The position numbers were made by a program, and so were the translations under genes. A DNA stretch of 33,887 nucleotides from a virus (Duplodnaviria > Heunggongvirae > Uroviricota > Caudoviricetes). Positions 9,313 through 19,913 of the stretch are shown in pieces (within the stretch, counting starts at the first letter, position 1; every line of letters begins with the position of its first letter). The notes beneath the pieces are model-generated. The model searched no databases, was not told the DNA's origin, and worked only from the letters and a program-made list of their open reading frames with translations. Where the stretch lies: positions 1 to 33,887 of IMG/VR virus record IMGVR_UViG_2740892429_000002, one strand, 5' to 3'.

Positions 9313-9722
9313 ACAGTTTAACGGCAAATAACCGTTTGTCGCAACAGCTGGTGGTCAGTGTCGCTGAACACCTGTTGTTACGGCATGAATGCAGATTACC
9401 AAATCACTTGGCTGTAAGTAACCACAGAGAACTTTACCTGACTGTGGGGGGCGAGTTGTGCAGGAACTTAACCGCTGGTTTCGTGACGGAAGAGGGCTTT
9501 ATGTCCATGTTATTCGTTGGGAGCCAGAAACACAGCGCGTTATCTATCTTCGCAAAGACTACCCGCATGAGTGCTTTAGTCCTTTGTGGAAATTCAGGCG
9601 TGATTTTGTTGAGTGTGAAGGACCACCAGCACATTGATTCTGCCATTCCGGGACGTTACACTGTTCAGGCACCTTATAAAGCGGGTGCCGGGCGTGGAAA
9701 CTCGGAATTCACCAAAGCGCAC

Positions 9723-9746
9723 AACCGCGCTCTTGCGGTTTTTTTG
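9723..9746 (+). terminator. intrinsic terminator in the early-right operon
   Basis: AACCGC-GCTCTT-GCGGTT followed by TTTTTTT. Confidence 0.5.
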
Positions 9747-9914
9747 TGTAATGAGCAGCATTACGCCCAAATTATGGTGGGGCGTGCAGGGCCAACTTCG
9801 GTTGGGCCGGGTTCTTTGGTGACCGGTATTTCCACCCCTGTACGTCTCACCACCAATAAGGTCGTGGAAAGCCTTGGTGGTGAGTTATTAAAAATCACCA
9901 AAGAGGCTGCCATC

Positions 9915-16702: not shown

Positions 16703-17755
16703 ATGAAAAATACTGTAAAAATAAACAGTGTTGATTTAATCAACGCTGATTGCCTGCATTTTATTCAGTCCCTGCCTGATGATTCCATTGACCTGATTGT
16801 TACCGATCCGCCGTACTTCAAGGTGAAACCCAACGGCTGGGACAATCAGTGGAAAGGGGACGAAGATTACCTTAAGTGGCTGGACCACTGTCTGGCCCAG
16901 TTCTGGCGGGTGTTAAAACCTGCCGGAAGCCTTTACCTGTTCTGTGGGCATCGCCTGGCATCTGATATTGAGATCATGATGCGTGAACGTTTCAACGTGC
17001 TTAACCATATCATCTGGGCGAAGCCGTCCGGACGTTGGAATGGGTGTAATAAAGAAAGTCTGCGTGCATATTTTCCTGCCACAGAGCGCGTTCTGTTTGC
17101 TGAACATTACCAGGGGCCATATCGCGGCAAAAGTGACGGCTATGCGGCAAAAGAAAGGGAACTCAAACAGCACATAATGGCACCGCTGATATCGTATTTC
17201 AGGGATGCTCGTGCCGAACTGGGTATAACGACAAAACAAATTGCCGAAGCCACAGGTAAGAAAAATATGGTTTCCCACTGGTTTGGTGCCAGTCAGTGGC
17301 AGTTGCCGAATGAGGCTGACTATCGGAAGTTACAGGCACTGTTTTCCCGTATAGCGGCAGAGAAGTTTCAGGAACAACAACTGGAACAACCACACCACCA
17401 GCTGGTGGCATCTTATGATTCACTGAATCGCAAATATTCTGAATTGCTGGATGAGTTTAAATCTCTCCGGCGCTATTTCTCCGTATCAGTCTCCGTGCCT
17501 TATACCGATGTCTGGATGCATAAACCCGTTCAGTTCTACCCGGGGAAACATCCGTGTGAGAAACCGGCGGATATGCTCAGGCAAATAATCAATGCCAGTA
17601 GTCGACCAGGTGATCTGGTTGCTGATTTTTTTATGGGATCCGGTTCCACAATAAAAGCAGCAATGGCGCTGGGGCGTCGGGCCTTAGGTGTTGAGCTTGA
17701 GTCAGAGCGGTTTAACCAGACAGTGAAAGAGATAAACGAGCTGGTGGGGAAATAA
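16703..17755 (+). CDS. orphan DNA methyltransferase (N6-adenine/N4-cytosine class, DPPY motif)
   Basis: 350 aa. IVTDPPYF catalytic motif near the N-terminus and an FxGSGST AdoMet-binding motif near the C-terminus. No cognate restriction gene nearby. Confidence 0.8.
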
Positions 17756-17759
17756 TCTG

Positions 17760-17788
17760 GTGGCCACGTCAGGTGGCCTTTTTATTTC
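17760..17788 (+). terminator. intrinsic terminator after the methyltransferase
   Basis: GGCCAC-GTCA-GGTGGCC followed by TTTTTATTT. Confidence 0.55.
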
Positions 17789-17822
17789 CATTACACAGCA
17801 CCCGCATCTGCGAGGTGGGGTT

Positions 17823-18038
17823 ATGAAATCCATGGATAAGTTAACAACGGGTGTCGCCTATGGCACCTCAGCAGGTAGTGCCGGGTACTGGTTTTTACAG
17901 TTGCTCGATAAAGTCACGCCCTCACAGTGGGCGGCAATAGGTGTGCTGGGTAGTCTGGTATTTGGCTTGCTGACGTATCTGACAAACCTTTATTTCAAGA
18001 TTAAAGAAGACAAGCGTAAGGCTGCACGGGGAGAGTAA
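17823..18038 (+). CDS. phage-21-type pinholin (class II holin, dual start MKSM)
   Basis: [71 protein letters not shown] closely matches S21 as I recall it. GAGGTGGGG RBS. Confidence 0.85.
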
Positions 18039-18042
18039 TTCA

Positions 18043-18594
18043 ATGACTCAAAACTATGAACTGATTGTGAAAGGGATCCGCAATTTTGAGAATAAAGTTA
18101 CGGTAACTTTAGCGTTACGGGACAAAAAACGCTTTGACGGTGAAATTTTTGACCTGGACATCTCGCTGGACCGTGTTGAAGGTGCCGCGCTGGAGGTTTA
18201 TGAGGCAGCAGCCAGAAGGAGCATCAGACAGGTCTTCCTGGATGTTGCTGCTGGGTTATGTGAAGGGGATGAGCAGTCGCCGGAAAAGCGCCCCGTAATT
18301 TTAGATGCGAAGAATGTGTGGATAACCTACAAAGGAAAGCTACCGGGAAGAATTACTGGTTCTCTGAAGACGCCACCGACGGCATTGCGGTCAGAAAAAG
18401 ATGATATTGAATCGCCCATTGAAAAACTGGAGGGCAGAGTCGCTGATCTGAATAAAAAATTGTCGGTGCTGATCCCTTCTGAAGATGAAAAAAAACGCCG
18501 CGATGAGCAGTTTGCGGCGTTTTACGATTATTGCATTGAGGTTACTCGCAGGAATTTTGTGAAGATTTTTGAGGAGGGTAAATCTCTTCAGTAA
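18043..18594 (+). CDS. hypothetical protein (183 aa) inserted between holin and endolysin
   Basis: ORF starting 5 nt after the holin stop, GGGGAGAG upstream. No recognisable domain; charged, partly coiled-coil C-terminal half. Confidence 0.55.
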   Translation: MTQNYELIVKGIRNFENKVTVTLALRDKKRFDGEIFDLDISLDRVEGAALEVYEAAARRSIRQVFLDVAAGLCEGDEQSPEKRPVILDAKNVWITYKGKLPGRITGSLKTPPTALRSEKDDIESPIEKLEGRVADLNKKLSVLIPSEDEKKRRDEQFAAFYDYCIEVTRRNFVKIFEEGKSLQ

Positions 18595-18802
18595 GCTTAA
18601 TGGCGGACGCTGCAATTAATTCAGGAAGATCCGCAAGGTCATCTGTCAGTGGATATGATGAAAAATCGGCGGCAGTTCTGTTAAGAAGCGCTTTAACTAA
18701 TTCCTTTTCTTTCTCCGGCAACAAGTTGATTAGAGCTACGACTGCTTGCCTGAGTGCGATTAAATCAGCAAAAGTTTGTTTTGGTAGATTTGTGTAATCC
18801 AT
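18542..18802 (-). CDS. hypothetical acidic protein (86 aa), convergent with the 183-aa gene
   Basis: Start at MDYTNLPK with AGAGGTG RBS. Its 3' end overlaps the 3' end of the plus-strand gene by about 50 nt. Confidence 0.5.
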   Translation of the reverse strand: MDYTNLPKQTFADLIALRQAVVALINLLPEKEKELVKALLNRTAADFSSYPLTDDLADLPELIAASAIKLTEEIYPPQKSSQNSCE

Positions 18803-18915
18803 AGTCACCTCTGTGTTTATCAGATTGACATCCTCCTCCCGCCAGTGCCCATCACTGGCGAGGTAAGATTTAACATATCCGGGGATTTGAAGCCGATAAA
18901 TCCTGATAAATATCC

Positions 18916-19449
18916 ATGAGCGCAAAAATCAAATATGGCCTGTCGGCTGCCGTTCTGGCACTGATTGCCGTCGGTGCGCCTGCGCCTGACATTCTTGACC
19001 AGTTTCTGAATGAAAAGGAAGGTAACCATACCACGGCATACCGCGATGGTTCCGGCATCTGGACCATCTGTCGTGGTGCCACAATGGTGGATGGTAAGCC
19101 CGTCATACCGGGAATGAAGCTGTCGAAGGAAAAATGCGACCAGGTTAACGCTATTGAACGTGATAAGGCGCTGGCATGGGTGGAGCGCAATATTAAAGTA
19201 CCACTGACCGAACCACAGAAAGCGGGTATAGCGTCATTTTGTCCCTATAACATTGGCCCCGGTAAGTGTTTCCCGTCGACGTTTTATAAGCGGCTGAATG
19301 CCGGTGATCGTAAGGGTGCATGCGAGGCGATTCGCTGGTGGATAAAAGATGGTGGGCGCGATTGCCGCATACGTTCAAATAACTGCTATGGACAGGTTAT
19401 TCGTCGTGACCAAGAAAGCGCATTAGCCTGTTGGGGGATAGATCAGTGA
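18916..19449 (+). CDS. SAR endolysin (T4-lysozyme-like muramidase)
   Basis: N-terminal signal-anchor-release segment ([16 protein letters not shown]) and E-8aa-D-5aa-T catalytic triad ([18 protein letters not shown]). Confidence 0.85.
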
Positions 19450-19913
19450 GCAGAGTCGCCGCGATTATTTATGCTCTGGTTATCTGCATCATCGTCTGCC
19501 TGTCGTGGGCGGTCAATCATTACCGTGATAACGCCATCGCCTACAAAGAACAGCGAGATAAAAAAGTCAGTGAGCTGAAGCAGGCGACCGCCACCATTAC
19601 TGACATGCAGCAGCGCCAGCGTTCTGCTGATGCACTCGATGCTAAATACACGAAGGAGTTAGCTGATGCGAAAGCTGAAAATGATGCTCTTCGGCGCAAG
19701 CTTGATAATGGTGGTCGGGTGTTCGTCAAAGGAAAATGCCCTGTGCCATCCTCAGCCGAAACCTCCAGCGCCTCCGGCATGGGCAATGATGCCACCGTCG
19801 AACTCTCTCCAGTTGCTGGACGAAACGTTCTCGGTATCCGGGACGGAATCATCAGCGACCAAACAGCACTGAGAGCGCTTCAGGAATACATCAGGACGCA
19901 ATGCCTTCGATGA
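19446..19913 (+). CDS. Rz: i-spanin Rz
   Basis: GTG start overlapping the endolysin stop. N-terminal TM segment and a sequence close to lambda Rz ([26 protein letters not shown]...[17 protein letters not shown]). Confidence 0.85.
19666..19872 (+). CDS. Rz1: o-spanin Rz1 (embedded lipoprotein)
   Basis: 68-aa ORF in the +1 frame inside Rz; lipobox LIMVVGC, proline-rich PPAPPAW; AAGGAG RBS. Confidence 0.8.

What the first reader, a model, noticed from the sequence alone, without database searches (positions are those of the whole stretch)
18043..18900. Convergent, 3'-overlapping gene pair inserted between pinholin and SAR endolysin
Phage-21-type lysis cassettes normally run S, R, Rz/Rz1. Here a 183-aa unknown gene (plus strand) and an 86-aa acidic unknown gene (minus strand) sit between holin and endolysin and overlap tail-to-tail by about 50 nt, which allows antisense interference. 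A 7-bp perfect palindrome GCCAGTG-N6-CACTGGC (about 18841-18860) lies in the promoter region of the minus-strand gene. This could be a lysis-timing regulator, a toxin-antitoxin-like pair or a defence moron.
Basis: seen in the sequence. Interest (0 to 1): 0.7.

Follow-up and report, generated by a model that had tools for sequence, protein, structure and literature searches.

The report
Swappable small gene inside phage lysis cassette
Between the holin and endolysin genes of this E. coli prophage sit a common late gene (a long YdfR) and, on the opposite strand, a small self-contained add-on gene, one of at least seven unrelated small genes that occupy this spot in related phages; none has a known function.

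Summary
ORF-A is 18043-18594 (+), 183 aa. ORF-B is 18542-18802 (-), 86 aa, pI 4.6. They overlap tail to tail by 53 nt. The palindrome is 8 bp with a 5-nt spacer, at 18840-18860.

The two genes are not shown to be a functional pair. ORF-A is a long YdfR/DUF1327 protein, the usual occupant of the slot between an S21-type holin and R; the family is in 3667 of 5426 complete E. coli genomes. K-12 YdfR binds the catalytic half of RNase E.

ORF-B is a real gene: dN/dS is about 0.3 across three clades. It looks like an autonomous leftward unit, a moron. It has a conserved 5' block, the palindrome, a Shine-Dalgarno site and an intrinsic terminator (stem plus T8) lying inside ORF-A codons 149-161.

The same 5' block and palindrome precede at least five other unrelated small genes, and a seventh follows the block with a different hairpin. 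So the ydfR-R junction is a cargo hotspot.

No toxin-antitoxin, defence, Pfam or fold match was found. The promoter is only a weak consensus match. Expression and function are untested.

The parts
17823..18038 (+). S21-type class II holin (pinholin type), 71 aa, with the dual-start motif MKSMDK
   Evidence: PF04971, E 2e-35; phrog_9876 and phrog_20, holin. The terminator-like hairpin 17762-17778 lies just upstream.
18043..18594 (+). ORF-A: long-form YdfR family protein, 183 aa, a late-operon gene
   Evidence: PF07041 DUF1327, 136.6 bits against a cut-off of 25, over aa 1-112. phrog_2091 matches full length. 79.7% identical to K-12 YdfR over aa 1-74. dN/dS about 0.4-0.5 in the N-domain (informative pairs) and 0.36-0.38 in the C-module.
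18043..18378 (+). DUF1327 N-terminal domain of ORF-A (aa 1-112): three strands plus one helix
   Evidence: AF2 model: E5-14, E18-27, E34-43, H50-69, pLDDT 70-87; aa 81-121 are disordered. K-12 YdfR residues 1-72 carry the RNase E N-terminal-domain binding surface (PMC13232886).
18409..18585 (+). C-terminal helical module of ORF-A (aa 123-181, two long helices); GC 0.42
   Evidence: Present in the 176/183/211-aa forms. In the 263- and 296-aa forms it is shared only up to about aa 176. A stand-alone 73-aa Salmonella gene matches its last 35-40 aa.
18542..18802 (-). ORF-B: 86-aa acidic soluble protein, predicted three-helix bundle, phrog_2572
18542..18594 (.). 53-nt tail-to-tail coding overlap of ORF-A and ORF-B
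   Evidence: The overlap is 59 nt, in the same relative frame, in the Salmonella clade and the third clade.
18488..18523 (-). Intrinsic-terminator-like hairpin for ORF-B, inside ORF-A codons EKKRRDEQFAAFY. The arms are 18514-18523 and 18492-18501 with a 12-nt loop. On the minus strand an 8-T run follows the GC core (A-run 18488-18495 on the + strand).
   Evidence: Inverted repeat I1, 10 nt, 100% complementary. RNA fold -14.6 kcal/mol, z -4.0 on the minus strand and -18.7 kcal/mol, z -4.4 on the plus strand. The hairpin is kept in all three clades with a compensatory G-C to A-T pair change. It is present in 83 of the fetched ORF-B loci, 82 of them with the identical sequence.
18808..18811 (-). 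Shine-Dalgarno GAGG, 5 nt before the ORF-B ATG (18802-18800)
   Evidence: Read from the sequence. GAGG is kept in the GAGGCG variant carried by 22 or more loci.
18840..18860 (.). Palindrome or stem-loop CGCCAGTG-N5-CACTGGCG in the 5' flank of ORF-B
   Evidence: The inner CCAGTG/CACTGG is nearly invariant and is shared by six unrelated cargo classes. Other clades have a different hairpin at the same position, with compensatory changes between L100 and L105. It is absent where there is no cargo.
18866..18917 (-). Conserved 5' block. The core ATATTTATCAGGATTTATC is at 18913-18895. It holds the only promoter-like hexamers: TTTATC 18900-18895, a 17-nt spacer, then TATGTT 18877-18872. On the + strand the same block is the leader of R.
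   Evidence: The core is unique in the window. It occurs once in every ORF-B locus of all three clades, including places where R is not the neighbour. The hexamers match only 7 of 12 positions and fall below the scan threshold. The promoter role is inferred.
18916..19449 (+). R: phage-21-type lysozyme with a SAR-like N-terminus, followed by Rz at 19431-19913
   Evidence: PF00959, E 1e-24; Rz is PF03245.

Best explanation
The 'pair' is two separate things that abut.

(1) ORF-A is a long form of YdfR (DUF1327), the ordinary late-operon gene found between an S21-type holin and the R endolysin in E. coli lambdoid prophages. By homology with K-12 YdfR, its N-domain probably binds the catalytic half of RNase E and RNA. 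Its C-terminal two-helix module is an add-on.

(2) ORF-B is an autonomous, leftward-transcribed accessory gene, a 'moron', lodged at the ydfR-R junction. The unit runs from a conserved 5' block through the CCAGTG-N5-CACTGG palindrome, a GAGG ribosome site and 86 codons to a stem-plus-T8 terminator. The terminator lies 18 nt past the ORF-B stop, inside ORF-A's last 35 codons. The 53-nt overlap comes from this tight packing and was not shown to be a dedicated antisense device.

The junction is a cargo hotspot. The 5' block is constant, and at least seven unrelated small soluble proteins alternate behind it, most with their own terminator.

Inferred, not shown: ORF-B is made when the late operon is silent (in the lysogen or early in infection). 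Q-antiterminated late transcription reads through the embedded terminator, runs antisense across the whole ORF-B unit and shuts it off. The product is a cytoplasmic three-helix protein that acts by binding another protein. Its target is unknown.
For: ORF-A is the standard occupant of the slot.
- PF07041, 136.6 bits.
- Family hits in 3667 of 5426 complete E. coli genomes.
- Same slot in K-12 Qin, H-19B and Stx phages.
- RNase E N-terminal-domain binding and RNA co-purification were shown for K-12 YdfR, with the surface within residues 1-72 (PMC13232886). ORF-A is 79.7% identical over aa 1-74.
- The C-module is coding, dN/dS 0.36-0.38.

ORF-B is a real gene.
- It is the only open frame in six homologues, dN/dS about 0.3, and indels come in whole codons.
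- Homologues of 38-57% identity exist in Salmonella and in a third clade.

ORF-B looks like an autonomous unit.
- The terminator hairpin plus T8 is confirmed. It is conserved in three clades, with CGCCGC/GCGGCG changing to CGCCACC/GGTGGCG, which alters both encoded residues (RR..AA to RHH..VA).
- The 296-aa YdfR form, which has no minus-strand cargo, has lost one arm of the hairpin.
- The 19-nt core of the 5' block lies about 110 nt upstream of ORF-B in all clades, even where R is not adjacent.
- ORF-B has GC 0.41 against 0.48-0.52 for S, the ORF-A N-domain and R.

The junction is a hotspot.
- A motif scan of viral contigs found seven unrelated cargo families behind the block: 86-93, 90, 91, 95, 98, 104 and 210 aa. 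Many loci have no cargo.
- hhalign probability between families is at most 2.5%.
- Six of the seven are PHROGs of unknown function; the 210-aa protein has no PHROG.
- Each has its own Shine-Dalgarno site.
- Four of the six have a clear hairpin plus T-run after the stop; two are less clear.
Against: - No convincing sigma-70 promoter. The best hexamers (TTTATC, 17 nt, TATGTT) match 7 of 12 positions and were not reported by the scan.
- No transcript, transcription-start or protein data for ORF-B were found.
- The 5' block is also the ydfR-R spacer in phages without cargo. It could therefore be primarily the leader of R.
- About 10% of loci carry ORF-B start-codon (ATG to ACG, 9 loci) or nonsense (1 locus) changes.
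- ORF-B always has a + strand partner ending in the same frame with a related C-terminal 35-40 aa. The ORF-A C-module shares ORF-B's low GC. Both fit joint inheritance and possibly joint function.
- Within E. coli alone, the excess of third-position changes is weak (13 of 27).
Confidence: 0.6

Rival explanations
1. Functional convergent two-gene module. The C-terminal helical module of ORF-A (a stand-alone 73-aa protein in Salmonella) and ORF-B work together. For example, they could be a regulator and its antagonist, or a toxin-antitoxin-like couple. Coupling would be by protein-protein contact and by the complementary 3' ends of their mRNAs. One partner would be made in the late lytic phase and the other in lysogeny.
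For: - In all three ORF-B clades and at least five genomic contexts, ORF-B converges on a + strand gene with a 53-59-nt overlap in the same relative frame.
- The partners share a related C-terminal 35-40 aa: BLASTP E 3e-5; hhalign E 1e-4 and 6e-4.
- The Salmonella 73-aa gene has its own GGGGGG ribosome site and overlaps the Rz-like gene by 8 nt. Its dN/dS is about 0.3.
- The ORF-A C-module and ORF-B share low GC, 0.42 and 0.41.
Against: - Partner homology is confined to the stretch that holds ORF-B's terminator and tail (ORF-A aa 149-183 = nt 18487-18591). It could therefore be a by-product of ORF-B's 3' flank.
- Upstream of that stretch the three partners are unrelated.
- The C-module occurs without ORF-B in the 296- and 263-aa YdfR forms.
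- Other, unrelated cargo genes take ORF-B's place.
- Both proteins are acidic and soluble, and there is no toxin, antitoxin or PADLOC match.
- Known type II toxin-antitoxin pairs are co-directional operons (my own knowledge).
Confidence: 0.2
2. Antisense lysis-timing device. What matters is the leftward transcript, not the ORF-B protein. It pairs with the late S-ydfR-R-Rz mRNA, triggers cleavage between S and R (by RNase III, or by RNase E recruited through YdfR) and so tunes the holin:endolysin ratio or blocks leaky lysis in lysogens.
For: - The whole ORF-B unit, about 380 nt, is complementary to the late transcript between ydfR codon 149 and the leader of R (geometry).
- K-12 YdfR binds RNase E and co-purifies with RNA.
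- The position between holin and endolysin is suited to uncoupling the two.
Against: - ORF-B is under protein-level purifying selection across 38-57% divergence.
- Seven unrelated protein-coding cargos share the slot. Any antisense effect would therefore be generic, not specific to ORF-B.
- In Salmonella the ORF-B cassette lies after Rz, not between holin and endolysin.
- There is no Rfam match in the region.
Confidence: 0.1
3. ORF-B is not a functional gene. It would be a chance antisense ORF in the 3' region of a decaying ydfR locus, and the palindrome would be a chance or R-leader feature.
For: - NCBI's PGAP annotation pipeline calls ydfR here a truncated pseudogene.
- Ten of the fetched loci have a lost start codon or a nonsense codon in ORF-B.
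- Within E. coli the synonymous excess is weak.
Against: - ORF-B is conserved as an intact ORF in three clades with dN/dS about 0.3, and every other frame is broken.
- It has a strong ribosome site and its own terminator.
- It matches a full-length PHROG family.
- The long ORF-A is itself under purifying selection, so the pseudogene call is most likely a model-length artefact.
Confidence: 0.04

Closest known systems
Lambdoid 'morons' such as lambda bor and lom (concept of Hendrix and colleagues; recalled from my own knowledge)
   Same: An extra gene with its own transcription signals, inserted between genes that are adjacent in related phages. Its presence varies among relatives and its base composition differs from its neighbours. 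bor also lies beside the lysis genes on the opposite strand and is expressed from the prophage.
   Different: ORF-B is a cytoplasmic acidic helical protein, not an envelope lipoprotein. It sits inside the S-R interval. Its terminator and last 17 codons are embedded in the neighbouring coding sequence. The site holds at least seven alternative cargos behind one conserved 5' flank. The promoter and prophage expression are not shown.
E. coli K-12 Qin prophage YdfR (P76160, DUF1327/PF07041)
   Same: ORF-A has the same N-terminal domain (79.7% identity over aa 1-74) and the same position between the holin (annotated essD in that record) and rrrQ. It probably shares RNase E N-terminal-domain and RNA binding (PMC13232886).
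   Different: K-12 YdfR is 103 aa. It abuts R directly and has no helical C-module and no convergent cargo gene. RNase E binding has not been tested for the long form.
[quoted passage not shown]
   Same: Fixed flanks in a temperate phage with highly variable, unrelated cargo swapped between close relatives.
   Different: The cargos here are single proteins, six of 86-104 aa and one of 210 aa. The three families scanned (ORF-B, its Salmonella homologue and the 210-aa protein) match no PADLOC model; the other families were not scanned against PADLOC. The site lies inside the lysis cassette and is transcribed against the late operon.
Anti-CRISPR / anti-defence loci of temperate phages (my own knowledge)
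   Same: Many unrelated small acidic proteins of unknown fold alternate at one locus behind a shared upstream element.
Convergent antisense pairs such as lambda oop/cII (my own knowledge)
   Same: Convergent transcription units whose 3' ends overlap, so that one can interfere with the other.
   Different: Both partners here are protein-coding, and the overlap seems to follow from packing. Other cargos overlap ydfR by 35 or 68 nt, or not at all.

Membership tests
YdfR / DUF1327 (PF07041), for ORF-A | Match to the family HMM above the curated cut-off | tested here: met
   136.6 bits against a cut-off of 25, aa 1-112. Database relatives are named 'YdfR family protein'.
YdfR / DUF1327 (PF07041), for ORF-A | Position between an S21-type holin and the R lysozyme in a lambdoid late operon | tested here: met
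   The same order is seen in K-12 Qin, H-19B and Stx2a_WGPS2.
YdfR / DUF1327 (PF07041), for ORF-A | Binding to the RNase E N-terminal catalytic domain and to RNA, as reported for K-12 YdfR | not testable with these tools
Moron (autonomous accessory unit in a phage operon), for ORF-B | Own terminator | tested here: met
   A 10-bp stem (GC core of 6 bp), a 12-nt loop and T8 lie 18 nt after the stop; z -4.0; conserved with covariation. The scan tool missed it because the loop exceeds 8 nt.
Moron (autonomous accessory unit in a phage operon), for ORF-B | Own promoter | tested here: inconclusive
   A conserved 5' block with TTTATC, 17 nt, TATGTT (7 of 12), with spacing kept in all clades. It falls below the consensus-scan threshold. 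No expression data were found.
Moron (autonomous accessory unit in a phage operon), for ORF-B | Present or absent between genes that are adjacent in related phages, with deviating base composition | tested here: met
   Short ydfR abuts R in H-19B, WGPS2 and K-12. GC is 0.41 against 0.48-0.52. Alternative cargos occupy the same site.
Type II toxin-antitoxin pair | Co-directional two-gene operon with recognisable toxin and/or antitoxin domains | tested here: not met
   The genes are convergent. There are no Pfam, NCBIfam or PADLOC matches.
Type I toxin-antitoxin (antisense RNA against a small hydrophobic toxin) | A small membrane-active toxin peptide and a non-coding antisense RNA | tested here: not met
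   Both products are soluble and acidic (GRAVY -0.11 and -0.51) and both are protein-coding under selection. No RNA family matches.
Known anti-phage defence systems (PADLOC-DB 2.0) | HMM match to a defence protein model | tested here: not met
   There were no hits for ORF-A, ORF-B, the Salmonella ORF-B homologue, the 73- and 144-aa partner proteins or the 210-aa cargo.
Antiholin or holin-associated lysis regulators (S21-71 type; T4 RI/RIII type) | A membrane segment or demonstrated binding to the holin, and an effect on lysis timing | not testable with these tools
   Neither ORF has a hydrophobic segment. The ORF-B homologue in Salmonella sits beside a different lysis cassette (holin_8, holin_3_7, GH19 endolysin), after Rz. 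No binding or timing data exist.
Anti-CRISPR AcrIIC4 | Significant sequence or fold similarity | tested here: not met

The most novel reading that the evidence does not exclude
The ydfR-R junction of lambdoid and Stx prophages is a dedicated accessory locus. One conserved leftward control region (the 5' block plus the CCAGTG-N5-CACTGG element) drives a rotating set of unrelated small cytoplasmic proteins. These would be arms-race factors: anti-defence proteins, superinfection-exclusion or defence modulators, or modulators of host RNA decay or of lysis. They would be switched off by late antisense transcription. ORF-B would be one such factor, possibly working with or against the RNase E-binding YdfR it is welded to.
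Probability: 0.3. Interest if true: 0.7.

Novelty: new member of a known kind. Interest (0 to 1): 0.45.

Why it matters
As first described, the finding is mostly ordinary. One gene is the usual YdfR family member, and the other is an already annotated hypothetical protein present in hundreds of E. coli genomes, including enterohaemorrhagic (EHEC) strains.

Three things are useful.

1. It defines a compact hotspot with fixed flanks inside the lysis cassette of lambdoid and Stx prophages. At least seven unrelated small proteins of unknown function alternate there behind one conserved control region. That pattern elsewhere marks phage-host or phage-phage conflict genes, and it gives a short, testable candidate list.

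2. It shows a transcription terminator that is maintained by compensatory changes inside a coding sequence, at the cost of changing both encoded residues.

3. It flags that the long YdfR forms are called pseudogenes by NCBI's PGAP annotation pipeline although they are under purifying selection. This matters now that K-12 YdfR has been linked to RNase E.

Tried and rejected
- NCBIfam and PADLOC scans of both ORFs and of related cargo and partner proteins gave nothing.
- Pfam for ORF-B gave only a sub-threshold ABATE hit (E 0.078).
- Rfam found no family in 17700-19000. The weak GcvB hit (16.7 bits against a gathering score of 42) is chance.
- The afdb50 library was not available.
- A 975-aa repeat protein (P0139) matched ORF-B through eight weak repeats. 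I judged this spurious.
- The + strand ORF 18600-18797 shares third-codon positions with ORF-B, so polymorphism within E. coli could not tell them apart. It was rejected because that frame is broken by stops in every homologue.
- The sigma-70 scan found no promoter for ORF-B in the window or in the Salmonella locus.
- I guessed that the 210-aa cargo of L005 uses the same embedded terminator. That was wrong: it has its own hairpin plus T7 right after its stop.
- Alignment A7 contains a row I mistyped. It is not used; the hairpin variants were recounted from the real loci.
- My first coordinates for L005 and L007 in alignment A6 were off. They were corrected.
- Literature searches for DUF1327, ydfR, the PhiR phage names, and moron or hotspot terms found no study of ORF-B or of this junction.
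Full report
**What is in the sequence.** The window is the late region of an E. coli lambdoid prophage. A DNA methylase gene (16703-17755) and a terminator-like hairpin (17762-17778) come first. They are followed by:
- an S21-type holin (17823-18038, PF04971, dual start MKSMDK);
- ORF-A (18043-18594, +, 183 aa);
- ORF-B on the other strand;
- R lysozyme (18916-19449, PF00959);
- Rz (19431-19913, PF03245).

ORF-B is best read from ATG 18802, which has GAGG five bases upstream, to TAA 18542. That gives 86 aa, pI 4.6. The two ORFs overlap by 53 nt (18542-18594). It is unique in the window. It folds better than all 200 shuffles on either strand.

**ORF-A is an ordinary gene in an ordinary place.**
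- Residues 1-112 match DUF1327/YdfR (PF07041, 136.6 bits) and the whole protein matches phrog_2091.
- DNA of this family is found in 3667 of 5426 complete E. coli genomes.
- The gene sits between the holin and R in K-12 Qin, H-19B and Stx phages.

So the premise that phage-21-type cassettes run S, R, Rz does not describe E. coli prophages.

The family is modular. Short forms of 103-116 aa have only the N-domain. Forms of 176, 183 and 211 aa add a helical C-module. Forms of 263, 268 and 296 aa share that module to about residue 176 and then continue differently.

The AF2 model shows three strands and a helix (pLDDT 70-87), a disordered linker at 81-121 and two long helices at 123-181. The C-module is under purifying selection, dN/dS 0.36-0.38. 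NCBI's PGAP annotation pipeline calls the gene 'YdfR family, missing C-terminus'. That pseudogene call is probably an artefact of a short family model.

**ORF-B is a real protein-coding gene of narrow distribution.**
- It matches phrog_2572 end to end. It has no Pfam, NCBIfam or PADLOC match.
- Close relatives are all from E. coli or Shigella.
- An exhaustive HMMER search and a profile search added homologues of 38-57% identity, in Salmonella enterica and in a third clade known only from metagenome or read-assembly contigs.
- Across these, the ORF-B frame is the only one free of stops, indels come in whole codons, and dN/dS is about 0.3.
- Within E. coli the signal is weak (14 synonymous against 21 non-synonymous changes). 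Nine loci have ATG changed to ACG and one has a nonsense codon.

**ORF-B carries its own signals.** Eighteen bases past its stop, on its own strand, lies a 10-bp stem with a GC core (CGCCGC/GCGGCG) and a 12-nt loop. Eight T follow the GC core (arms 18514-18523 and 18492-18501, T-run down to 18488). The fold scores z = -4.0. The scan tool missed it because its loop limit is 8 nt.

This terminator lies inside ORF-A codons EKKRRDEQFAAFY.
- The hairpin is kept in all three clades.
- In the third clade the arms are CGCCACC/GGTGGCG. A compensatory G-C to A-T change turns RR..AA into RHH..VA in the overlapping protein. This argues for selection on the nucleic-acid structure.
- The 296-aa YdfR form, which has no gene on the minus strand, has lost one arm through a five-codon deletion.

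Upstream of ORF-B lies a block of about 50 nt (18917-18866). Its 19-nt core, ATATTTATCAGGnTTTATC (18913-18895), is unique in the window. The core occurs once, about 110 nt before the ATG, in every ORF-B locus of all clades. That includes the Salmonella loci and L108, where R is not the neighbour.

The block contains TTTATC, 17 nt, TAT(G/T)(T/G)T with conserved spacing. This is only 7 of 12 consensus positions, so the promoter assignment is an inference. The palindrome follows immediately, so it would be at or near the 5' end of the transcript.

In the Salmonella clade and the third clade a different stem-loop occupies the same position. L100 and L105 differ there by compensatory changes.

Within the E. 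coli type, the inner CCAGTG/CACTGG is almost invariant, while the outer two pairs are only loosely kept. The majority allele has a mismatch there, and one variant is compensated. I cannot tell an RNA hairpin from a protein operator.

**The junction is a cargo hotspot.** I scanned viral contigs for the 19-nt core and read what lies behind it. Seven unrelated gene families were found, all on the minus strand, each with its own Shine-Dalgarno site and ATG 100-130 nt from the core:

| Cargo | PHROG | Contigs or loci seen |
|---|---|---|
| ORF-B, 86-93 aa | phrog_2572 | about 15 in the motif scan |
| 90 aa | phrog_2411 | 28 |
| 104 aa | phrog_1853 | 7 |
| 210 aa | none | 4 |
| 98 aa | phrog_25324 | 2 |
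| 95 aa | phrog_10490 | 2 |
| 91 aa | phrog_18136 | 1 |

- Many other loci have the block but no cargo.
- hhalign probabilities between families are at most 2.5%.
- None of the families has a significant Pfam match.
- All are soluble, with pI 4.5-6.1.
- Six classes share the same block and palindrome. The 90-aa class has the block but a different hairpin.
- Four of the six other cargos have a clear hairpin and T-run right after the stop.
- Their overlap with ydfR varies: 35 nt, 68 nt, or a 10-nt gap.
- ORF-B has GC 0.41, against 0.48-0.52 for S, the ORF-A N-domain and R.

These are the marks of morons: autonomous units, variably present, at a site whose right flank is constant.

**Are ORF-A and ORF-B a functional pair?** Some evidence points that way.
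- In every context, ORF-B converges on a + strand gene that ends in the same relative frame, 53 or 59 nt into ORF-B. The partner is a stand-alone 73-aa gene after the Rz-like gene in Salmonella, a 144-aa gene in L108, and DUF1327 fusions of 176-243 aa elsewhere.
- The partners share a related C-terminal 35-40 aa.
- The ORF-A C-module has the same low GC as ORF-B.

Other evidence points against it.
- The homologous stretch is exactly the segment that holds ORF-B's terminator and tail. Upstream of it the partners are unrelated.
- The C-module exists without ORF-B.
- Other cargos replace ORF-B.

I therefore rank the pair model second, at 0.2. Nothing supports a toxin-antitoxin reading.

**How it most likely works.**
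- Shown: the anatomy of the unit, its conservation, and the hotspot.
- Inferred: the late operon is read by Q-modified polymerase, which ignores terminators (established lambdoid biology, from my own knowledge). That polymerase would pass the embedded hairpin and run antisense through all of ORF-B. ORF-B can then accumulate only when late transcription is off, in the lysogen or early in infection, as for other morons.
- Unknown: the target of ORF-B. Its size, charge and helical fold suggest that it acts by binding another protein.

The link to an RNase E-binding neighbour, and the possible 5' stem-loop, are suggestive but untested.

**Comparison with known systems, and novelty.** ORF-A is a member of a known family. 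ORF-B is an uncharacterised PHROG that behaves like a classical moron (compare lambda bor). The less usual features are the terminator embedded in a neighbour's coding sequence and membership in a multi-cargo hotspot inside the lysis cassette. I found no paper describing this junction or ORF-B.

**Verdict.** This is a new member of a known kind, of moderate interest. The most novel reading still open is an arms-race accessory locus, with probability about 0.3.

Noticed in passing
window 9669-9857 (+): Two adjacent Rfam matches above gathering score: isrK Hfq-binding RNA (9669-9745, 62.5 bits) and C4 antisense RNA (9770-9857, 83.6 bits). This looks like a P1/P7-style antisense immunity element inside a lambdoid prophage.
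   Followed up: no
L003 20001-20336; L004 2501-2842: In RefSeq, NCBI's PGAP annotation pipeline calls the long YdfR gene a pseudogene ('missing C-terminus', 336-342 nt). Yet the full 183-codon ORF is intact and its C-module has dN/dS of about 0.37. This is probably a systematic mis-annotation of the long forms.
   Followed up: partly
window 18492-18523; L103 and L108 equivalents: A hairpin inside a coding sequence is kept by a compensatory change that alters both encoded residues (RR..AA to RHH..VA). The structure appears to be selected over the protein sequence.
   Followed up: yes
L005 817-1449 (-), Stx1a phage Stx1_14040: A 210-aa gene with a strong AGGAG ribosome site and its own terminator sits behind the same 5' block and palindrome. 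It has no Pfam, PHROG or PADLOC match. The record instead annotates a 263-aa + strand ORF that runs antisense through it.
   Followed up: partly
L011, L012, L057, L058, L068, L070, L077, L079, L082: Nine loci carry ORF-B with its start codon changed from ATG to ACG. All are linked to the 176-aa ORF-A allele, which has a 7-codon deletion. This may be one inactivated lineage, judging by the Shigella-named proteins of that allele.
   Followed up: partly
L017 2959-4172: An IS element (transposase with HTH_Tnp_1 and rve domains) is inserted in ORF-A and splits it, while ORF-B stays intact.
   Followed up: no
window 17755-17778 (+): A terminator-like hairpin (GGCCACGTCAGGTGGCC followed by a T-run) lies between the methylase gene and the holin. 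It could be a tR'-like site that late transcription must read through.
   Followed up: no
L104 4001-4282 and neighbours (Salmonella enterica): The ORF-B homologue and its 73-aa partner sit after a quite different lysis cassette (Phage_holin_8, Phage_holin_3_7, GH19 endolysin, DUF2514 spanin) and before a DUF1441 protein gene and the large-terminase gene. The cassette is therefore not tied to pinholin/SAR-endolysin systems.
   Followed up: partly
L113 and 27 further viral contigs: In the motif-based sample the most common cargo at this junction is not ORF-B. It is a 90-aa protein (phrog_2411) with its own different 5' hairpin (AGCCTG..CAGGCT), and it overlaps a short ydfR by 35 nt.
   Followed up: partly
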